Assembly: GCA_964354805.1 (NCBI GenBank) | Contig: CAYHBD010000009.1 | Coordinates: 116,770-180,769, forward strand | Source: an uncultured archaeon | GTDB lineage: Archaea > Iainarchaeota > Iainarchaeia > Iainarchaeales > GCA-2688035 | Direction: 5' to 3' | Length of the DNA: 64,000 nucleotides | Part shown: in pieces, positions 5,406-25,078 of the stretch | How positions within the stretch are numbered: the first letter of the stretch is position 1 | How the letters are laid out: every line of letters begins with the position of its first letter | Program-made: the position numbers and the translations under genes | Notes under the pieces: generated by a model | Database searches by the model: none | What the model saw: only the letters and a program-made list of their open reading frames with translations | What the model was told of the DNA's origin: nothing

Positions 5406-7136
5406 ATGAGACGCAATCCCGCATTTTTTGTAATTGCTTTTCTTGCAGCATTTTTGCTAGTGAGCAATGGCTGCTATGCCCAAGCCTTTGAGCATTCGCT
5501 CCATTTTTTTCAAATCAGGTATGGTGACAGTATGGGGGAGCCTCTTCCAGCCGGCAAAGTTGAGTTCACAATCGGGCCTAATGCATATGACGGCTTGCTG
5601 CAGTATGCGTATGTATCGTTTATGACAATTACCCCCCAGGAAAATGTTAGTAGGGGAGATGCTCCGGGTTATGTTGTTTCACTTGACCCGAGTGAAATAG
5701 ACACTGTATACAGCCAAAAAGGATACTGGCGGGGCAACGTATATCGGGTAGATAAAAATGAGCTGCAAATAGCGGATATTCAAAAAATACACAAAGAATT
5801 AAATCCAAGCGATCCGGCATTATATTTTGGCGCTGAGTTGGATGCCAGCGAGAAACCAGCCAAGCCCGCTGGCTTAACAGATGCGGATTATCAGAATGGC
5901 AAAACAATTGTTGTTCCAGCAAGATATAATAATGATGTACCGTTCCAGAGAAGGTTTTTTTTTAATTTAAATGCCGAGGCAGTGAGAGAATACATGATCC
6001 TGTACGCGTTAAAGCAAGCTGGGTCAAAAAACATTTTTGTTGATGGTGCTTTTGTTAGTAACTGCCAGATTTGTGTTAATTGCGGTTTTTATTCAGGTGG
6101 GGAATGTCCTAAAGGAGAATTAGGAGAATCAAAAGAATTGCATTATATTTCCAACGAGAGCGCTTCTAGTCAAATAATTACTTACACCTCGCAAATAAAT
6201 GGCATCCTCAACAAAATAAAGGGCAGCCGACAGATTATACTTAATGGCTTTAGTTTAAGCCAATCCCACCCATCTACCGCAGAAGTGCTTCGTTGGCTGT
6301 TGGATCATGGTTCCACTAATTTTGATGGAATAATGCTGGAAAACGGATTTTGGGGAGATGATCAGTTTTATGCCACTGATTTTTCTGCCAACGGGGGGCA
6401 TGGCAATAACTGCATTGAGCCCTGGAAGTATCAAGGATTGGGCTACAGGGATCATATATGCACTGATATCGAATATTATAGGAAGTATATATTGGAGTTA
6501 AAGAACACGAACAAGAAATTTTTGTTTGTAGCTGGAAGTGATGTTGAAGGCCACCCAGATTATTTAAAATTTGCTATAGGCAACCCTTTGATTGAAGATA
6601 TATGGCTGTGGTTTCACCTTATTGCAAGCCAAAACACCTATTTCTATATCACGCAGACTACCCAAGAGCCAATGCTAAATTACCCAGTCTACGATTCTCC
6701 TTTGGGGGTGCCCTTAGAAGAAGAGGGGCCCAGCAAAGATGGCAATACCTGGTCCAGAGAATACGAAAGAGGCACAGTTGTTTTTGACACAACAAAAGGC
6801 TGCATAAGTGAAATCAAATTCATTGAAAAAGAAATATGCGACGGCAAAGACAACGACGGCGATACCCTTATCGATGAAGACAATGTCTGCTGCAACAACG
6901 GGCAATGCGATGCTGGCGAAACAGTTACAACATGCCCGCAAGACTGCAAGTGTGGCAATACCCTATGCGATGCAGGCGAAACATTTGAAACCTGCCCAGA
7001 GGATTGCCAAGAATGCGTTGATAACGAAAAACTAGTAGGCGACTACATCCCCAAATGGAAAAGGGGAGAAATAACCATGCTTGTGCTGATGCAGAAAATC
7101 GCGGCACGAAACGCAGGAACAGGATGCCCGCAATAA
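5406..7136 (+). CDS. Secreted protein, putative glycoside-hydrolase-like passenger + Cys repeats + WKRGEI tail (family member 1)
   Basis: Signal peptide; FDGIMLEN and LGVPLE..WSREYERGTVVFD resemble GHL15-type proteins; CGNxxCDAGETxxxCPxDC repeats; shared C-terminal module. Confidence 0.7.
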   Translation: MRRNPAFFVIAFLAAFLLVSNGCYAQAFEHSLHFFQIRYGDSMGEPLPAGKVEFTIGPNAYDGLLQYAYVSFMTITPQENVSRGDAPGYVVSLDPSEIDTVYSQKGYWRGNVYRVDKNELQIADIQKIHKELNPSDPALYFGAELDASEKPAKPAGLTDADYQNGKTIVVPARYNNDVPFQRRFFFNLNAEAVREYMILYALKQAGSKNIFVDGAFVSNCQICVNCGFYSGGECPKGELGESKELHYISNESASSQIITYTSQINGILNKIKGSRQIILNGFSLSQSHPSTAEVLRWLLDHGSTNFDGIMLENGFWGDDQFYATDFSANGGHGNNCIEPWKYQGLGYRDHICTDIEYYRKYILELKNTNKKFLFVAGSDVEGHPDYLKFAIGNPLIEDIWLWFHLIASQNTYFYITQTTQEPMLNYPVYDSPLGVPLEEEGPSKDGNTWSREYERGTVVFDTTKGCISEIKFIEKEICDGKDNDGDTLIDEDNVCCNNGQCDAGETVTTCPQDCKCGNTLCDAGETFETCPEDCQECVDNEKLVGDYIPKWKRGEITMLVLMQKIAARNAGTGCPQ

Positions 7137-16967: not shown

Positions 16968-19121
16968 ATGAAACCCAACAGGGCGGTTTTTGCGATTGCC
17001 TTTGCAGCAGCATTCCTGCTCGCAAGCACAAATTGCTACAGCGTGCAACCTGAAAAAGTGTCTTTGGAGGGGGAAGATTTCATTTTCACTTTTTGGCCGA
17101 TTTACATAAGCGGATGCACACAGCAAAAACTGGACGACCCTAACAGTATCGCGAGCAAAAGAATGCAGGGAATTGACACAATGATGGACCCTAGTATAGG
17201 AATGACCCATGCAGGCATACATTTCGTGGCCCTTCCCACTGATGAAAATCCATGTTTAACGAATCTTAAGAATATTAAAAAATACAAGCTGGCTTTAGAA
17301 ATTAGCGCAGGGCATGGTAGATTAAATGAGGGGCGTACAGAATTAGCTGACATTAAGTGGCCAGCCGAGTATTTAAACACGGACAAGGGAAAGCAGTTTC
17401 TCAAGGCGCCCTGCCTGTGCAATAATTGCACTATCACTGAAGAGATTGCAAACAATTGGTCTGATTACGTTGACAAAGAAAGGTGCGGGGATTGGAACAA
17501 CAATCGTGCACTAGACCCTTCATATACCGGCATATTATGGCAGAATACTTTGAATAATACAAAGGATGTTGTAGCAAAGGCTCAGCCTGAAATTGTTTTA
17601 TTTGACACTGAACTATGGCTTAGGCCAGGAGCCATAGACACGGATTTTTATGGGGATACTGATTGCCAGTGCATGCTTCTTCAAAAGGCCTTTGGATATG
17701 ATGGATGCGGAACACAACCACCTTGCAACAGGTATGATTATTACCAAAAGAACCCGCTATGCTGCCAATATGACCGCTATATTTCTGCCTGGAGGCAGCG
17801 CGGGCTTGAGCTGAAAGCGGCAGTTCAATCAGTTTCTTCAGCAAAAGTTTCTTTTTACGACGAAATTCCAGCAAATGGAAGAAGATATGTTCAGACCTAT
17901 ACCGGGGCGTACTGGGATAATTATGACACAATTGGAGCAATGCCAAGCGGCGTTAGCGACTACCCATCGCCTTATTTGTACATTGTTCCAAATTTAGAGG
18001 TTTTTGAAAAAAACACGCCCTATCTTTCTGGCACAGTCCCCTGGGTCAGCTATACTCACATGATGGGGTACAGCAATTTCAATGAGCAAAAAGCAGATGT
18101 GTACTTTGATCCAAGCGTGAGCAGGGAAGCCGGGCGAATGCTAAGGGAAGCTGGGGCAAAAGGGTTCATAGTTTACCCAAACGGCCAAAACATGGAGGAA
18201 AGGACTGCTGGAGAGAAGTATTGGCAACACTATGGGAAACAGGGCTATGATTATTGGCTGGCGCATGCCAAGGAAATGATTGCAGGATTCAACGAAGAAC
18301 CAACATATGTTGAGAAAAACAAGATTAGGAACAGTGATTTTGAGGCATTCAGGGCAGTAACTAAAGAATATAAAAAGGGGGCGGGAATGTCCCATACTAG
18401 CAGCCAATTGGTTGGGCAAACACAGTTTGCGCCTGTTTTTTGGTTTTGGCAGGATTCAAGCCCAAATTACAACGACATTAATAATGCGGCATTTAGCAAT
18501 TTGGTTTATGATGACTCGCTGCAAGAATACCTTAAAGTCCCTGATGCTCAACCGTACAAGAATTTTGTTTTCGCCGATGTTAAGAGCGGAAGCGTTGCCT
18601 GGAAGCATTCAAGGAACGGCGAGCCAGGCAGCAGAACCATTTTGTCAAAAACATTCTCAATTGGGGCTGCTGAGGAAGGAAAGTATAAGTTTTCCATTTG
18701 GACAAAAGCAAGCCTTGATTCTGCTAACGGCAAAATTGAATTCTTTTTAGTGAACACAAGCACTTTGGCAGAGCAAAAACTCGGCGAAACAGGCTTTGAA
18801 ACAAGCTGGAAAGAATTCAAAAAATATGCAAACATGGCAGTTGGAGACTACAACGTAAAAATACTAATAAATGACCAAACAGGGCAAGCAATTGACATAT
18901 TTCTTGACAAAGCATCGCTGGAAAAAGCGGGGGAAGAATGCGGAAACACAATATGCGAAGCAGGCGAAACTGTCTCATGCCCGCAGGATTGCCAAGAATG
19001 CATTGATACGCCGAAATTAATAGGCTACATTAGCCAGTGGAAAAGGGGAGAAATAAGCATGCTCACGCTGATGCAAAAAATGAAGCAATATAAAGCAGGA
19101 ACAGGATGTCCGACGCAGTAA
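16968..19121 (+). CDS. Secreted protein, putative glycan-active domain + CBM-like domain + WKRGEI tail (member 2)
   Basis: Signal peptide; NKIRNSDFE CBM4/9-like start; shared Cys repeat and tail. Confidence 0.7.
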   Translation: MKPNRAVFAIAFAAAFLLASTNCYSVQPEKVSLEGEDFIFTFWPIYISGCTQQKLDDPNSIASKRMQGIDTMMDPSIGMTHAGIHFVALPTDENPCLTNLKNIKKYKLALEISAGHGRLNEGRTELADIKWPAEYLNTDKGKQFLKAPCLCNNCTITEEIANNWSDYVDKERCGDWNNNRALDPSYTGILWQNTLNNTKDVVAKAQPEIVLFDTELWLRPGAIDTDFYGDTDCQCMLLQKAFGYDGCGTQPPCNRYDYYQKNPLCCQYDRYISAWRQRGLELKAAVQSVSSAKVSFYDEIPANGRRYVQTYTGAYWDNYDTIGAMPSGVSDYPSPYLYIVPNLEVFEKNTPYLSGTVPWVSYTHMMGYSNFNEQKADVYFDPSVSREAGRMLREAGAKGFIVYPNGQNMEERTAGEKYWQHYGKQGYDYWLAHAKEMIAGFNEEPTYVEKNKIRNSDFEAFRAVTKEYKKGAGMSHTSSQLVGQTQFAPVFWFWQDSSPNYNDINNAAFSNLVYDDSLQEYLKVPDAQPYKNFVFADVKSGSVAWKHSRNGEPGSRTILSKTFSIGAAEEGKYKFSIWTKASLDSANGKIEFFLVNTSTLAEQKLGETGFETSWKEFKKYANMAVGDYNVKILINDQTGQAIDIFLDKASLEKAGEECGNTICEAGETVSCPQDCQECIDTPKLIGYISQWKRGEISMLTLMQKMKQYKAGTGCPTQ

Positions 19122-19187
19122 TAGCATCGCAGCATTTCAATCAATTAAATTTTTATTAAAGAAAGCACTTATTCTAATTGATTAAAA

Positions 19188-20639
19188 ATGAAAAAAACAA
19201 TCAGGGCAATTGCCATCTTTGCATTACTTTTGCTTGCAAGCACAAATGGCAGCAGCGCAAAAAATAATATTTACGGTAGCGGCATAGATACAAATGGCTT
19301 GATGCCAATCAATGTTGATGACACCAATGTTAGCTATCGTTTCAGGGCAGAGCATTCAGGGTTGCTTGAAAGCGTTGCATTTTACCTTGTAATCAACAAG
19401 CCGTTGTACACTCAGGGCGATGGCGGGCATTTGCTGGTTGAATTACGAACTGATGATGGCACTGGAAATCATTTTCCGTCCAACGAAGTTTTAGCATCAC
19501 ACTATATTGATAAACCAATGGATGGGCGCAGTTATCCCGGTTCTTTTGTTCCTTTACCAGGCAACCCTTCACCCTGCACTGGCAGCTCGTGCGGCGCTGC
19601 TTTCCCAAAAATTCCTTTAAATGCACAAATTGAAGAAGGAAAGCTTTACCACATTGTTTTTTCCAATACGCACGCAGACAGCAGGAATAATTGGATGTCC
19701 CTGAATCTGCTTTGGGCTGACAGCACACCAATGCAGCCCATGTTTGATGACCTTGATTTTGCACTCCTTTTTTACGACAACTTCCACAAAACATGGACAA
19801 CCAATAGCGAAACTCTTAGGACCCCAATATTAAGCGTAGATTACGTTGGTGGCAATTCGCAAGGGCAAGGCTACATAGAAGCGTGGACAAATGGCTCTGT
19901 TGCTATTGCAGGCGATAACAAAGTAAGGGAAAGATTTACTGTAAGCGGCAAGGACAGGCAGATATCAAAGGCATTTGTCAAGGTGCAAAAACCAGCTGGA
20001 ACAAATCCAGGGGATTTAACATTCAAACTACAAAAAGATGACGGCACCATTATTGAAGAAGGCAATGTTGCCTCAGCCAGCATTAGTGAAGGAAGAATGC
20101 AATGGGCAAGCTATAGCTTCCGAGAGAAACACACATTAAAAGCAGGGGAAACATATGCCCTTGTTCTTGAAGCCCCACCCGGTGACTCATATAGTACTTT
20201 TGCAATTAGGGAAGGGGGAGATGTTGGATTGAACGGGGGTTTATTCAAAGACGGCAATGCATACTATAGTGATGACGGTGGACAGAGCTGGAAGGTGATT
20301 AGATACAGCGGATTTGATTTACAATTCTATTTTGAATTATCCTGCCCAAACGGAAACTGTGAGGAAGGGGAAAATTGTTTAACTTGCCCGCAGGATTGCC
20401 CCATATGCCAGCCCCAATGCGGCAACGGCACAGCGGACACTGGGGAAAACTGCTCAAGCTGCCCTGCAGACGTGCAGTGCGAAACAGGACAAGAGTGCAT
20501 AGAAGGAACATGCACAGCAACGGAATGCATTAGGGAACCAGAGCTGCTCGGCTACATCAGCCAGTGGAAAAGGGGCGAAATAAGCATGCTCACGCTAATG
20601 CAAAAAATGAAACTATGGAGCACCGGAACAGGATGCTAA
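19188..20639 (+). CDS. Secreted beta-sandwich protein + Cys repeats + WKRGEI tail (member 3)
   Basis: Signal peptide; two beta-rich domains (LKAGETYALVL, AYYSDDGGQSW); shared tail. Confidence 0.7.
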   Translation: MKKTIRAIAIFALLLLASTNGSSAKNNIYGSGIDTNGLMPINVDDTNVSYRFRAEHSGLLESVAFYLVINKPLYTQGDGGHLLVELRTDDGTGNHFPSNEVLASHYIDKPMDGRSYPGSFVPLPGNPSPCTGSSCGAAFPKIPLNAQIEEGKLYHIVFSNTHADSRNNWMSLNLLWADSTPMQPMFDDLDFALLFYDNFHKTWTTNSETLRTPILSVDYVGGNSQGQGYIEAWTNGSVAIAGDNKVRERFTVSGKDRQISKAFVKVQKPAGTNPGDLTFKLQKDDGTIIEEGNVASASISEGRMQWASYSFREKHTLKAGETYALVLEAPPGDSYSTFAIREGGDVGLNGGLFKDGNAYYSDDGGQSWKVIRYSGFDLQFYFELSCPNGNCEEGENCLTCPQDCPICQPQCGNGTADTGENCSSCPADVQCETGQECIEGTCTATECIREPELLGYISQWKRGEISMLTLMQKMKLWSTGTGC

Positions 20640-20840
20640 CGCCAGCATAGCGCAGGCAATGAAAAGCAGGTGAAGGCTGCCCAATATAAAAATGGCTGCA
20701 AGGGGAAAAAGAATTGCAAAAACTGGGGCATTAAATTTTTATTCAAGAAAGACCTACTCTAATTGATTAAATTGAAATCCTGCATTAAAATTCCTGCAAT
20801 CGCATTCCTTGCAATGCTGTTGATCGGGGCAGCATCAGCC
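20561..20840 (+). repeat. Junction repeat copy A (tail + intergenic + promoter + signal peptide)
   Basis: Highly similar to 22706-22987; 58 bp identical (20641-20698 = 22784-22841). Confidence 0.9.
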
Positions 20841-22793
20841 CAAAAAATGAGGCATAAAGAGAAAAAGTTAATACAAGCGAATTTAGTGCTAGCAATTGGT
20901 ATAGTTTCTTTACTGATTTTTTTTAGTTTGGGAAGTATTAGAGAGCCAGTTAAAGAAGGTTTAACGAGCTTTGCCGTATCAAGTTTTGATGAAGTTGTTC
21001 CCAATTGTGGCAATAATCTTTGCGAGAGTGGAGAAATTGCTGAAAGTTGTCCTGATGATTGCGATATATGTTCTGAAGAAAAATGTGATGTGTATGCCCC
21101 TATTCAGCATAAGAAATATTTTAAGGCTGAAAAGGAAGTTTATGGTTATGACCCGCCTTTCCAACCAGCTCGAGTAACCTTTGACGCTAATAATAGGCCA
21201 TATATCAGAAAGAATGACTGTAACACTACAAATGACTTCGCGTTTCGATGTTTTACAAATCAGCTAATTATTCAAACCCTTAACAGCAGTGGAGAGTGGG
21301 AGTATTGGGATTTATCTAATATAGTAAAAACATACAAAGACCAAATGTTTAGATCCAGCACTCAAACAGATGAAAGAGTAATTATTGATTCTGACGGAGA
21401 TATGTATCTTGCAGTTGAATACAATCTTGAACCTTCTCTGCTACTTTTATATTCAAATGATGAGGGTAAAAACTGGCAGAGTTATCCTATCCAAGGGGTG
21501 TCTATGAAGTTTGAACCATGGCCAGGGCGAAATACTCCATCAATTTTAATCACAAATCGTGATAATAAGGAATTATATTTTATTATACCCCAAAAATTAT
21601 CAAATGGCACCTTAGATCTCTCCCATAAAATAAAATTATCAGATAATGCCTGGGAACCACTAAATCCTGGAGGGTATATGAGTTATTCTTTTAGTTATGG
21701 TGATCTAACTTTTTTTGTTTGGGCAGAATCAATTAGTTCTACTCCTAATGAAAACGGAACTCCATCTTACATTGCCGTGTATAATAGGACAAGCAGATTG
21801 TTAAGTCAACCATATCATATTGGAAATGGTGGAACTTATAATGGGGGGACAGGACTCACTGAGCCCCATAATCAACCAACCTTATGTTTGGATTCCAAAG
21901 GGTATATTCATGTTATCCTAGGAGGCCATAATGAGCAATTTAAATATTACAAATCAAAATATCCTTTAAATATCACAAAGTGGGAAGCACCCGTCTATCT
22001 TGGGGATCCAAATATTGATAATGTACAGAATAAACTAACTTATCCTGCACTACTTTGCGGAAAGGATGATACTTTACATCTTGCTATGCGTTCAATAATT
22101 CCTACTTATAGTTTCACTTTATCTTATACAAGAAAAAAAACAGGTCAGGGTTGGGAAAAAATTAAGCCGCTTGTTTTACCATTCAGAGCCTATTATGGAC
22201 ACTGGTATCATCAACTGAACATGGATAATAATGGCGTATTGTACTTAAATTATTGGTATCTTGCAAATAATTTATTTGATGATGAGCTTGAGGCTTATCA
22301 ACAAAAGTGGCCAGACGAAGACATTAATCTTAGCGGAGCATACAAACCAACAAACAACACATATTGGTGGAATCTCTATCCACTATACCACAGTCCAGCG
22401 ATGCTTGTTTCCTACGATAACGGAGATTCTTGGAAGCTCGCTGTTACAAGTGATTTTATAAAAGGAATGAACAAAGAAATCTGCGGAAACCAGCAATGCG
22501 AAGCAGGCGAAACCTTTGAAAGCTGCCCAACAGACTGCAAATGCGGCAATAGCGCCTGCGAAGTAGGCGAAACTTTCACAACATGCCCGGCAGACTGCAA
22601 ATGCGGCAATGCAACATGCGACGCAGGCGAAACATTCGAAACCTGCCCACGAGACTGCCCTCAAGAATGCGTTGACAACGAAAAACTGGTAGGCTACTAT
22701 ATCCCCCAGTGGAAAAGGGGGGAAATAACCATGCTGACACTAATGCAGAAAATGAGGCAATGGAAAGCTGGAACAGGATGCCAGCCAGCATAG
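20763..22793 (+). CDS. Secreted BNR-4/Asp-box beta-propeller protein + Cys repeats + WKRGEI tail (member 4)
   Basis: YSNDEGKNW and VSYDNGDSW Asp-boxes; EPHNQPTLCLDSKGYIHVILGGHN BNR_4-like motif; start possibly TTG 20772. Confidence 0.75.
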   Translation: MIKLKSCIKIPAIAFLAMLLIGAASAQKMRHKEKKLIQANLVLAIGIVSLLIFFSLGSIREPVKEGLTSFAVSSFDEVVPNCGNNLCESGEIAESCPDDCDICSEEKCDVYAPIQHKKYFKAEKEVYGYDPPFQPARVTFDANNRPYIRKNDCNTTNDFAFRCFTNQLIIQTLNSSGEWEYWDLSNIVKTYKDQMFRSSTQTDERVIIDSDGDMYLAVEYNLEPSLLLLYSNDEGKNWQSYPIQGVSMKFEPWPGRNTPSILITNRDNKELYFIIPQKLSNGTLDLSHKIKLSDNAWEPLNPGGYMSYSFSYGDLTFFVWAESISSTPNENGTPSYIAVYNRTSRLLSQPYHIGNGGTYNGGTGLTEPHNQPTLCLDSKGYIHVILGGHNEQFKYYKSKYPLNITKWEAPVYLGDPNIDNVQNKLTYPALLCGKDDTLHLAMRSIIPTYSFTLSYTRKKTGQGWEKIKPLVLPFRAYYGHWYHQLNMDNNGVLYLNYWYLANNLFDDELEAYQQKWPDEDINLSGAYKPTNNTYWWNLYPLYHSPAMLVSYDNGDSWKLAVTSDFIKGMNKEICGNQQCEAGETFESCPTDCKCGNSACEVGETFTTCPADCKCGNATCDAGETFETCPRDCPQECVDNEKLVGYYIPQWKRGEITMLTLMQKMRQWKAGTGCQPA

Positions 22794-22987
22794 CGCAGGC
22801 AATGAAAAGCAGGTGAAGGCTGCCCAATATAAAAATGGCTGTAAAGGAGAAAAAGAATTGCAAAAATGGGAGCAGTAGATTTTTATTCGAAAAAGACATA
22901 CTCTAATTGATTAAATTGAAATCCTGCGCTAAAATTCTCGCAATCGCATTACTTGCAATGCTTTTGGCTGGAACAGCGGCGGCTGCC
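22706..22987 (+). repeat. Junction repeat copy B
   Basis: See 20561-20840. Confidence 0.9.
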
Positions 22988-25078
22988 AACTGCATAGGCA
23001 ACAAGTCTGGGAATCTTATAGTTAACGGAGACCTGGAGGCAGTCACCGCAGGCATTCCTGACTGCTGGTATAAAGAGGGCTGGGAAAAAGATGGGGTGGC
23101 GCTGCCAGGAAGGGATTTGAATTGGGTTAAGGACCCTATTACAGGCGGAGACCATGGAATGGTTTTGAAAACGCAGAACACAAGCAATGGATCAGGCACA
23201 GGGCTTGCATGGCAAAATCCAGTTGCCCCTGAGCTTGTAGAGCCAAACACCTGGTATGAGCTTTCCTTCTCTTATGCCACTGAAGGCATTGAACCACTGC
23301 TTGACACAGACGGCAACATGCTACAGGACAGCGTTTGGATTGGGGCAGGCGCTATAATATGGGACGGAAACTGGAATAAGATAGATAAAGTGGATTCGTT
23401 AATTTGGGCTCAGGACCTTGAATTGGACAAGTGGGATGACAGCGCATGGGTTTACAGGACATACAAAAAAACAGGGCTTAAGCCATGGAAAGACGTAAAA
23501 AAATATTTTAAGACCCCTGCTGTGGTTGGACATATATACATATTAACATACAATTATCCAAAAGGAACAGCATATTTTGATAATTTCTCACTCAGGAAAA
23601 TAGGTTACAATCCTAATGATGTTCCATTTAAAAAATCCGGGACACTGCGCTTCCTCCAGTTTAAGGATGAGGATTTTTTCCCAATATTCCTGCACTCGTT
23701 TCCACAAAGAGGAGGGACAGATATTGGATTAAATGAGGTTAAAGAAAACGGATTCAACACAACAAACAGCTGGAACAAAACAAAAATCGAGGAGTTGGAT
23801 CTGGCAAGCGCAATAGACCTGCCTGAAATCCACAAAGGCTCTCCTGATAATCTCTCATGGTACAATGACCCTGGCCCTGGGAATTCAATTGCATACACTG
23901 GAAAGGCAGAAATTAAAACCAGAGTTTCCGAATGGAAAGATTTTGACAACCTTTTATTTTTTATAACCAGGAATGAAATTGAGTGCCACCCTGTCAGAGA
24001 CGAGTCATTTGTGCCTGATTTAGAAACATACAAAAAAATCAGCGAATATGTCAGAGGCAATGGGGCAAAAATATTCTACGGGTTCTGCGGAAGCTATTAC
24101 AATACCCCGGAAGCATATACTGGAAGCTATGATGACTTTGTAAATTATTACCATCCGCTTGCGGATATTATAAGCCATACCGCAAACCTGCCGCCGGCAT
24201 ACCCAAGCGCATACAACGAACCTCAATTAGACAAGGTCGGCATATGGACAAGGACAGACCTTTCCAGGAGCCCCGAAAAATATTTTATTGCAAGAGGCTT
24301 CAGCAGAATGGACTGGGCAAACTGGGACAGGGCAAGGGAAGCAGATGGGAGTGTTCGCAGGTACGACATATATGTACCGTTCAACCTGCAAAGGTTCCTT
24401 GTGTGGACCCAGATAATAAACGGCGCCACAGGGGCTGATTTTCTGTATACAAGCGCGATAAACCTAACTGACAAAGACTATGCCAAATACTATGCCCACA
24501 GCTGGAAGCAGATAACCGCAATATCAAAAGAGCTCTCGGAATTATACCCTGTTCTTGTTGAACCCCAGTTCCTTGACGAGTGGCAGGTTTCCGATCCAAG
24601 AGTGGAGATAATGATGAAAAAGCATGATGAAAAGATTTACCTTTTTGCAGCAAGCACGCATTATGAGGATTTGCTCAAGGAAACAATAACACTTGACAGC
24701 AAATACAACATAGCAAAAATAACGGCACTGAACGAAGTAATAAACGGGGATGTGGACAATCCCCCAACTGACAGAAGCATTGAGCTAGCTTCACCAAACA
24801 GCTTTGTTGACGACTTTGTTGGAGACGACGGCTCGCACGCATCTGCAGCAAGCCCTGGATATGCTGTGCACATTTACGAGATTGAATTAAGCGCCTGCGG
24901 CAATGGCACATGCGATTCAGGCGAAACTGTCTCATGCCCGCAGGATTGCCAAGAATGCGTTGACACGCCGACATTAATGAACCAGTACATTCCCCAGTGG
25001 AAAAGAGGAGAAATAAGCATGCTAACACTAATGCAGAAAATAAGGCAACGGAACACAGGGGAAGGATGCCCGCAATAA
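22907..25078 (+). CDS. Secreted CBM-like + putative glycoside hydrolase TIM-barrel protein + WKRGEI tail (member 5)
   Basis: GNLIVNGDLE..AYFDNFSL CBM4/9-like domain; FFPIFL..GFNT, QIINGATGADF pattern; shared tail; start possibly TTG 22916. Confidence 0.7.
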   Translation: MIKLKSCAKILAIALLAMLLAGTAAAANCIGNKSGNLIVNGDLEAVTAGIPDCWYKEGWEKDGVALPGRDLNWVKDPITGGDHGMVLKTQNTSNGSGTGLAWQNPVAPELVEPNTWYELSFSYATEGIEPLLDTDGNMLQDSVWIGAGAIIWDGNWNKIDKVDSLIWAQDLELDKWDDSAWVYRTYKKTGLKPWKDVKKYFKTPAVVGHIYILTYNYPKGTAYFDNFSLRKIGYNPNDVPFKKSGTLRFLQFKDEDFFPIFLHSFPQRGGTDIGLNEVKENGFNTTNSWNKTKIEELDLASAIDLPEIHKGSPDNLSWYNDPGPGNSIAYTGKAEIKTRVSEWKDFDNLLFFITRNEIECHPVRDESFVPDLETYKKISEYVRGNGAKIFYGFCGSYYNTPEAYTGSYDDFVNYYHPLADIISHTANLPPAYPSAYNEPQLDKVGIWTRTDLSRSPEKYFIARGFSRMDWANWDRAREADGSVRRYDIYVPFNLQRFLVWTQIINGATGADFLYTSAINLTDKDYAKYYAHSWKQITAISKELSELYPVLVEPQFLDEWQVSDPRVEIMMKKHDEKIYLFAASTHYEDLLKETITLDSKYNIAKITALNEVINGDVDNPPTDRSIELASPNSFVDDFVGDDGSHASAASPGYAVHIYEIELSACGNGTCDSGETVSCPQDCQECVDTPTLMNQYIPQWKRGEISMLTLMQKIRQRNTGEGCPQ

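What the first reader, a model, noticed from the sequence alone, without database searches (positions are those of the whole stretch)
20763..22475. Captured gene caught in the act: two signal peptides in tandem in member 4
Seen: after the family leader (..AFLAMLLIGAASAQK) the frame continues with MRHKEKKLIQANLVLAIGIVSLLIFFSLGS..EGLTSFAV. This is a complete second N-terminus with its own Met, basic stretch, hydrophobic helix and its own CGNNLCESGE repeat. The DNA becomes visibly AT-richer with T/A-ending codons from ~20848 to ~22470, then reverts at the tail. Inference: a whole foreign gene was inserted in frame between the constant head and tail.
Basis: partly seen in the sequence, partly recalled or inferred. 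Interest (0 to 1): 0.75.

Follow-up and report, generated by a model that had tools for sequence, protein, structure and literature searches.

The report
Foreign gene fused into secreted-protein scaffold
In a tiny uncultured archaeon, one member of a family of secreted proteins carries a complete gene of foreign origin, with its own start codon and membrane anchor, joined in frame between the family's signal peptide and its shared tail, which shows how such modular surface proteins gain new working parts.

Summary
The ORF 20763/20772-22793 has the family signal peptide (20772-20846). It is followed directly by a second N-terminus: ATG at 20847, a Lys/Arg-rich stretch and a 20-residue hydrophobic helix. 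It is the only one of 14 tail-bearing paralogs with two hydrophobic segments.

GC3 falls from 0.44 (head) to 0.27 (20847-22475; z = -3.6, lowest 0.5% of 637 long ORFs), then rises to 0.51 in the tail. No permutation out of 200 reached this break.

The low-GC block is a whole ORF. It has a Met, a membrane anchor, one Cys-rich CGN module and a seven-bladed BNR_4 propeller, and it ends where stand-alone homologs end.

The tail is native: 16 copies here, and copies in 8 of 22 genomes of the same family. The core was found in none of 214 other genomes of the phylum. Its relatives (42% identity or less) are in Planctomycetota, Lentisphaerota, a CPR-like contig and Nanoarchaeota. Some of these are stand-alone anchor-plus-propeller genes.

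A second, independent assembly has the same fusion at 99.9% identity, which argues against misassembly.

The donor is unidentified, and whether both hydrophobic segments are translated and how they insert is inferred only. I rate this a new variant of a known kind, of moderate interest. First readers of this scan had already noted the family and this junction.

The parts
20733..20743 (+). Family TATA-like box (AAATTTTTATT). It places the transcript start at about 20764-20768, so the message is leaderless or nearly so.
   Evidence: Conserved upstream block in most paralogs. There is a genome-wide TATA-like peak about 30-32 nt before starts.
20772..20846 (+). Native head: TTG start plus 25 codons of the family Sec-type signal peptide (n MKSCIK, hydrophobic core, ASA then Q at +1).
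   Evidence: 85-87% DNA identity to the head of the next gene. The TTG aligns with the paralogs' ATG, and 5 of 14 members use TTG. GC3 is 0.44.
20847..20936 (+). Second N-terminus, the start of the captured ORF: ATG, RHKEKK, and a 20-residue hydrophobic signal anchor.
   Evidence: AlphaFold2 predicts a helix at residues 31-56. No SD-like motif lies in the 17 nt before the ATG.
21006..21071 (+). The insert's own Cys-rich CGN module (C-x4-C-x8-C-x3-C), written in AT-rich codons (TGT for Cys).
   Evidence: An anchor followed by a CGN module is also seen in a genome of the same order (L018).
21084..22472 (+). BNR_4 (PF15892) seven-bladed beta-propeller, probably an extracellular glycan-binding or glycan-cleaving domain.
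   Evidence: Pfam 48.4 bits against a cut-off of 27.3. 648 homologs match only this part. pLDDT is mostly above 85. Fold matches: PL25 ulvan lyase, GH145 BT3686, PL42 lyase and propeller lectins.
20847..22472 (+). The whole low-GC3 block: 542 codons, a complete ORF without its stop codon.
   Evidence: GC3 0.27, z -3.6. Break test. Junctions.
22473..22793 (+). Native tail: KEI, three 60-nt CGN modules, and the roughly 42-residue WKRGEI..GTGC terminal module with its stop codon.
   Evidence: Repeat families D1 and D3. DNA alignment with four paralog tails. 16 copies in the genome and copies in 8 of 22 genomes of the same family. GC3 is 0.51.
22797..22833 (+). Relic of a further tail end (TGG changed to TGA) at the start of the spacer. 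The same relic lies at 20654-20690 after the previous gene.
   Evidence: Alignment A6.

Best explanation
Member 4 is a chimeric gene. Its promoter, near-leaderless TTG start, signal peptide and Cys-rich WKRGEI tail are native. They belong to a family with at least 14-16 genes in this small DPANN archaeon. Earlier notes of this scan call it Iainarchaeota, which I did not test. The passenger between head and tail (20847-22472) is a complete ORF acquired from an AT-richer lineage. It comprises a start codon, a Lys/Arg-rich signal anchor, one CGN module and a BNR_4 seven-bladed propeller. It was joined in frame at both ORF boundaries, most likely by replacing the core of a duplicated neighbour through recombination at or next to the head and tail (inferred). 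Expression most likely starts at the family TTG, so the product carries two hydrophobic segments 12 residues apart. The loop between them carries about +4 net charge and should stay cytoplasmic (positive-inside rule, established knowledge). I therefore infer that the head helix inserts N-out, or stays peripheral and uncleaved, and that the captured anchor inserts N-in/C-out. That would keep the propeller and tail outside the cell, as in the donor. This topology is inference and is not shown.
For: Composition break at the homology boundaries: with boundaries. Cys codon switch. Unique double hydrophobic N-terminus among 14 paralogs. Tail native to the family. Head and promoter shared by the paralogs. 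Core found in 0 of 40 relatives and 0 of 214 other genomes of the phylum. The Pfam-level hits there are unrelated proteins. Homologs occur in Planctomycetota, Lentisphaerota and Nanoarchaeota. In the tree the core sits on a long branch among bacterial-type sequences. Stand-alone anchor-plus-propeller genes end 1-5 residues after the DF.KG(M/I) motif. The same fusion, with 2 SNPs in head plus core, occurs on an independent JGI contig. TTG starts serve 5 of 14 family members, and there is no SD before the internal ATG. Tail-end relics in the spacers show earlier recombination in this array.
Against: No close donor was found. The nearest homolog is 42% identical, and nothing else shares the MRHK-anchor-CGN module. 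The tree placement (sister to P0025, SH-aLRT 94) carries a long-branch warning. The codon-usage likelihood is less extreme than GC3 (5.5th percentile). An in-frame junction has a 1 in 3 chance by itself. The two strains are too similar to test selection on the head. The end of the propeller is also a domain boundary: L021 is fused there to another tail. An end at that point therefore does not prove capture up to the stop codon.
Confidence: 0.7

Rival explanations
1. The chimeric origin is the same, but translation starts at the internal ATG 20847. The family head is then only a vestigial, in-frame 5' leader, and the protein has a single N-terminal anchor and no tandem signals.
For: ATG is a stronger start than TTG. 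The captured ORF keeps an intact start codon and anchor. An in-frame head has a 1 in 3 chance.
Against: No SD-like motif and no TATA-like box precede 20847. The only recognisable promoter puts the transcript start a few nt before TTG 20772. Four other family members depend on a TTG at this aligned position for their signal peptide. The gene caller chose the TTG on the independent contig.
Confidence: 0.2
2. There was no transfer. This is an old native paralog whose core drifted to low GC, and the second hydrophobic stretch is simply part of the passenger.
For: Two other paralogs also have rather low core GC3 (z -2.5 and -2.6). The CGN module type is native to this order.
Against: The core was not found in 214 other genomes of the phylum. 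The breaks are sharp and lie at the homology boundaries. Cys codon preference is reversed. There is a Met plus basic plus hydrophobic N-terminus exactly at the break.
Confidence: 0.07
3. Assembly artefact: a metagenome assembler joined a gene of a different, AT-richer organism into this contig through the repeated head and tail sequences.
For: Heads and tails are repeated at 77-87% identity, and the genome is a 49-contig MAG.
Against: A separate assembly from another sample (L019) has both junctions and both neighbouring genes. It differs by SNPs and by one tail repeat. This head is only 85% identical to any other head, which is too diverged to collapse in assembly.
Confidence: 0.03

Closest known systems
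Families of secreted proteins with an N-terminal signal peptide, a variable passenger and a shared C-terminal sorting or docking module (T9SS CTD, PEP-CTERM, PGF-CTERM, LPXTG, dockerin-bearing enzymes). Comparison from my own knowledge.
   Same: A common head and tail with unrelated enzymatic passengers. There are many copies per genome, and the tail is restricted to one lineage.
   Different: The tail matches no Pfam or NCBIfam model and has no transmembrane segment. The promoter and signal peptide are conserved at the DNA level. Here one passenger still carries its own start codon and anchor.
Cassette replacement by recombination at conserved flanks (Rhs/CDI C-terminal displacement, mycoplasma variable surface lipoprotein loci). 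Comparison from my own knowledge.
   Same: Conserved flanks, a swapped variable part, and leftover fragments next to the active gene. The tail-end relics correspond to such fragments.
   Different: Both ends are constant and the middle is swapped. The swapped piece is a whole foreign ORF, not a family variant.
Extended two-part signal sequences of autotransporters and two-partner secretion proteins (N1-H1-N2-H2-C; PMC2805444).
   Same: Two charged-plus-hydrophobic units in tandem at the N-terminus of a Sec substrate. This shows that such an arrangement can be tolerated.
   Different: There is no sequence relationship and no Pfam hit. The organism is archaeal. The arrangement arose here by fusion of two separate targeting signals, and the second is an anchor.
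BNR_4 propeller enzymes: PL25 ulvan lyase (5UAM), GH145 BT3686, PL42 L-Rha-alpha-1,4-GlcA lyase (7ESL). BNR_4 is linked to ulvan lyases in PMC13193363.
   Same: Pfam BNR_4 domain and a seven-bladed propeller fold.
   Different: Only weak and partial sequence similarity: E 1e-4 over 69 residues, and 23.5 bits against a 700-bit cut-off. Catalytic residues were not examined.

Membership tests
Pfam BNR_4 (PF15892) | HMM score above the gathering cut-off | tested here: met
   48.4 bits against 27.3, E 1.1e-12. The genome-level search gave 49.3 bits.
Pfam BNR_4 (PF15892) | Seven-bladed beta-propeller fold | tested here: met
   AlphaFold2 core pLDDT is mostly above 85. Foldseek hits to 5uam, 5muk and 7esl, E 1e-7 to 2e-8.
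PL25 ulvan lyase / GH145 rhamnosidase (enzyme families) | Family-level sequence match and conserved catalytic residues | tested here: not met
   NCBIfam BT3686 equivalog scored 23.5 bits against a cut-off of 700. PDB 5uam matched at E 1e-4 over 69 residues only. Catalytic residues were not examined.
Sec-type cleavable signal peptide (head) | Basic n-region, hydrophobic h-region, and small residues at -3 and -1 | tested here: met
   MKSCIK, a hydrophobic maximum of 2.44, and A-S-A before Q. Cleavage itself is not testable here, and no SignalP was available.
Horizontally acquired gene | Atypical composition bounded by sharp breaks | tested here: met
   GC3 z -3.6; 0 of 200 shuffles reach the observed break.
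Horizontally acquired gene | Not found in relatives, present in distant lineages | tested here: met
   0 of 214 other genomes of the phylum. Hits in Planctomycetota, Lentisphaerota and Nanoarchaeota.
Horizontally acquired gene | Nested within an identified donor clade | tested here: inconclusive
   Long branch of 1.01, sister to P0025 with a long-branch warning, and no starred clade holds it.
Known C-terminal sorting or docking domains (PGF-CTERM, PEP-CTERM, T9SS CTD, dockerin) | Match to the family model, or a C-terminal transmembrane helix | tested here: not met
   No Pfam or NCBIfam hit on the tail in four members. No hydrophobic segment at the C-terminus.
ESPR-type extended signal peptide | Match to the ESPR model | tested here: not met
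   No such Pfam hit at E <= 0.01. This is an analogy of layout only.

The most novel reading that the evidence does not exclude
The family head (promoter plus signal peptide) and tail act as a standing display scaffold. Whole foreign ORFs are repeatedly recombined into it, precisely at their start and stop codons. Member 4 would be the freshest capture. The tail-end relics in the spacers would be traces of earlier rounds, as would the low-GC3 cores behind normal tails in relatives (L041, L049, L050). That would be an in-frame gene-capture process in DPANN archaea with no described counterpart.
Probability: 0.15. Interest if true: 0.7.

Novelty: new variant of a known kind. Interest (0 to 1): 0.45.

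Why it matters
DPANN archaea depend on their cell surface to interact with hosts and with the environment, and they are thought to gain much of that repertoire by gene transfer. This locus is a clear intermediate. A transferred enzyme gene has been placed under a native promoter, signal peptide and surface tail, and it still carries its own start codon and anchor. It shows one route by which modular surface proteins gain new passengers. It also gives a natural test case for how the archaeal Sec machinery handles two targeting signals in tandem.

Tried and rejected
A 15-sequence alignment was too diverse for the genome-contig scan. A 6-sequence alignment worked. A word-based search with only the insert's first 82 residues found nothing but the strain variant. 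The tree with the mixture model did not finish on one CPU, so LG+G4 was used. Earlier notes on this genome describe mobile hairpin repeats, so I looked for hairpins at both junctions. Only a 10-nt A/T-rich pair was present, and I rejected that idea. The Pfam BNR_4 hits in three other genomes of the phylum are a 319-residue cytoplasmic propeller and repeat proteins. They are not relatives of this core. About half of the loci fetched from relatives missed the intended ORF because of my coordinate guesses. Literature searches found no description of this family. The kinship of the two Nanoarchaeota genomes to this genome is not given by the tool.

Full report
**Setting.** The window is contig C9:116770-180769 of a 1.38-Mb genome with 49 contigs, 44% GC and 88.5% completeness. 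Its relatives have genomes of 0.5-1.4 Mb, and its phylum holds only 215 species genomes. Earlier notes of this scan call it Iainarchaeota (DPANN). I did not test that name.

**The gene family.** At least 14 stop-to-stop frames in the genome end in the same tail, and a protein search gives 16 places.
- The tail consists of CGN-type Cys modules followed by a module of about 42 residues built around WKRGEI and ending in GTGC.
- Most members also share an upstream block with a TATA-like box about 30 nt before the start, and a signal peptide.
- Five of the 14 have TTG where the others have ATG.
- Four members lie in tandem at 16968-25078, and one more lies at 5406-7136.
- Their cores are unrelated: no Pfam family in two, a weak choice-of-anchor R match in a third, and BNR_4 in member 4.

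**The observation.**
- The frame of member 4 is open from 20763 to 22793. The start that aligns with the paralogs' ATG is the TTG at 20772.
- Twenty-five head codons give a typical n-h-c signal peptide ending A-S-A, followed by Q. A Gln at +1 also occurs in five other members.
- One Lys codon later comes the ATG at 20847. It is followed by RHKEKK and a 20-residue hydrophobic stretch that is more hydrophobic than the head (2.83 against 2.44).
- None of the other 13 paralogs has a second segment.
- The insert then has one CGN module of its own at 21006-21071, written with TGT Cys codons. The tail uses only TGC.

**Composition.**
- GC3 is 0.44 in the head and 0.51 in the tail.
- GC3 is 0.271 across 20847-22475, which is z = -3.6. 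Only 0.47% of 637 long ORFs are lower.
- A two-breakpoint fit puts the breaks at 20868 and 22305 with LLR 15.4. No shuffle out of 200 reached this value. It is the largest value among the 14 paralogs, which otherwise score 3.8-9.2.
- DNA homology to the next gene's head stops at about 20840. Homology to the paralog tails resumes at about 22473-22482.
- A synonymous-codon likelihood is less extreme, at the 5.5th percentile.

**What the block is.**
- Residues 108-570 are a BNR_4 (PF15892) domain.
- An exhaustive HMMER search found 648 relatives at E <= 0.001. Apart from the strain variant P0002, all the listed matches begin near the start of the propeller and none extends over the anchor.
- AlphaFold2 gives a confident seven-bladed propeller.
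- Foldseek matches propeller lectins, PL25 ulvan lyase, GH145 BT3686 and a PL42 lyase.
- Direct sequence links to those enzymes are weak. I therefore call it a BNR_4-clan glycan-binding or glycan-cleaving propeller and nothing more specific.

**Native or foreign.**
- The tail occurs in 8 of 22 genomes of the same family and hardly at all outside it.
- The core was not found in 40 relatives, nor in any of 214 other genomes of the phylum at E <= 1e-8.
- The Pfam model picks up three other genomes in the phylum. Two were inspected: one is a 319-residue cytoplasmic propeller and the other a repeat protein.
- In species-representative genomes the relatives are in Phycisphaeraceae, other Planctomycetota, Victivallis and two Nanoarchaeota MAGs.
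- In an LG+G4 tree the core sits on a long branch next to P0025. P0025 is an anchored protein from a short contig that also carries a bacterial sugar transferase.
- The core does not fall inside the Nanoarchaeota clade, so the donor is unresolved.

**Is it a whole ORF?**
- The 5' join lies within 3 nt of the ATG.
- At the 3' end the propeller stops at DFIKGM-N. The next 12 nt (AAAGAAATCTGC) match member 1 just before its Cys modules at 11 of 12 positions. This is suggestive only.
- Stand-alone homologs end 1-5 residues after the same motif (P0004, P0032, P0037, P0047, L020).
- L020 and P0047 are stand-alone genes with a Lys-rich anchor followed by the propeller, the same layout as the insert.
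- L018, from the same order, shows an anchor followed by a CGN module.
- One caution: in L021 the propeller is fused at this same boundary to a different Cys repeat and a different family tail. The point is therefore also an ordinary domain boundary.

**Independent copy.**
- A 3.3-kb JGI contig (L019) carries the same end of member 3, the same spacer, head, MRHK core and tail, and the start of member 5.
- From 20316 to about 22552 there are 4 mismatches, 2 of them in head plus core. The tail has two CGN modules instead of three. Member 5 is only 94-95% identical.
- This rules out a simple assembly chimera. The two copies are too similar to test selection on the head.

**How it likely works.**
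- The only promoter-like element is the family box at 20733-20743. It predicts a transcript that starts a few nt before TTG 20772.
- No SD-like motif or TATA-like box precedes 20847.
- The next gene has the same TTG head and needs it for its signal peptide.
- I therefore expect translation from the TTG (about 0.75 against 0.2 for the internal ATG).
- The 12-residue loop between the two helices carries K, R, K, K, K against one E. By the positive-inside rule it should remain cytoplasmic.
- The more positive flank of the head helix is then its C-terminal side. That favours N-out insertion or no insertion, with the ASA site out of reach of signal peptidase.
- The captured anchor would then insert N-in/C-out and export the propeller and tail.
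- The alternative is that the head is cleaved and the second helix acts as a stop-transfer signal. That would strand a Cys-rich extracellular-type domain in the cytoplasm.
- All of this is inference.

**Traces of earlier recombination.** Each spacer after members 3 and 4 begins with a relic of about 37 nt of another tail end, in which TGG has become TGA. The block of tail, spacer and head is duplicated at 87% identity. No hairpin element lies at the junctions.

**Verdict.** This is a clear example of a known kind of event, chimeric gene formation after transfer within a family of secreted proteins that share a sorting-type tail. It is unusual in keeping two N-terminal targeting elements. First readers of this scan had already noted the family, the junction block and this second N-terminus. 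I re-derived each point here.

Noticed in passing
window 20654-20690 and 22797-22833: Each spacer after members 3 and 4 starts with a relic of about 37 nt of the last 12 tail codons, with TGG changed to TGA. It looks like a scar of an earlier join inside the tail.
   Followed up: partly
L019 compared with window 20316-23685: Between the two assemblies, the end of member 3 plus member 4 is about 99.8% identical, while member 5 is only 94-95% identical from about 22860 onward. This means either a recent sweep or introgression of the member-4 block, or fast divergence of member 5.
   Followed up: partly
window 22482-22661; L019: The number of 60-nt CGN modules in the tail differs between strains, three here and two in L019.
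   Followed up: no
L041 (G004), L049 and L050 (G013): Tail-bearing genes in relatives also show low-GC3 cores (0.28-0.29) behind tails of 0.46-0.49. A homologous paralog, L042, has 0.55 and 0.54. The genome baselines were not measured.
   Followed up: no
L021:47-6003: In a Nanoarchaeota MAG, two adjacent genes share a different Cys-rich repeat and a different C-terminal tail. One of them is a BNR_4 propeller fused at the same boundary as in member 4. The passenger-plus-tail design is therefore parallel in another DPANN phylum.
   Followed up: no
G000 family members (for example window 20772 and 22916): Five of the 14 family genes use TTG at the position where the others have ATG, on what appear to be leaderless messages.
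   Followed up: partly
G000 C27:28-1647, C23:1185-2072, C35:69825-71663: Three other long ORFs have even lower GC3 (0.24-0.26). They are possibly further acquired genes.
   Followed up: no
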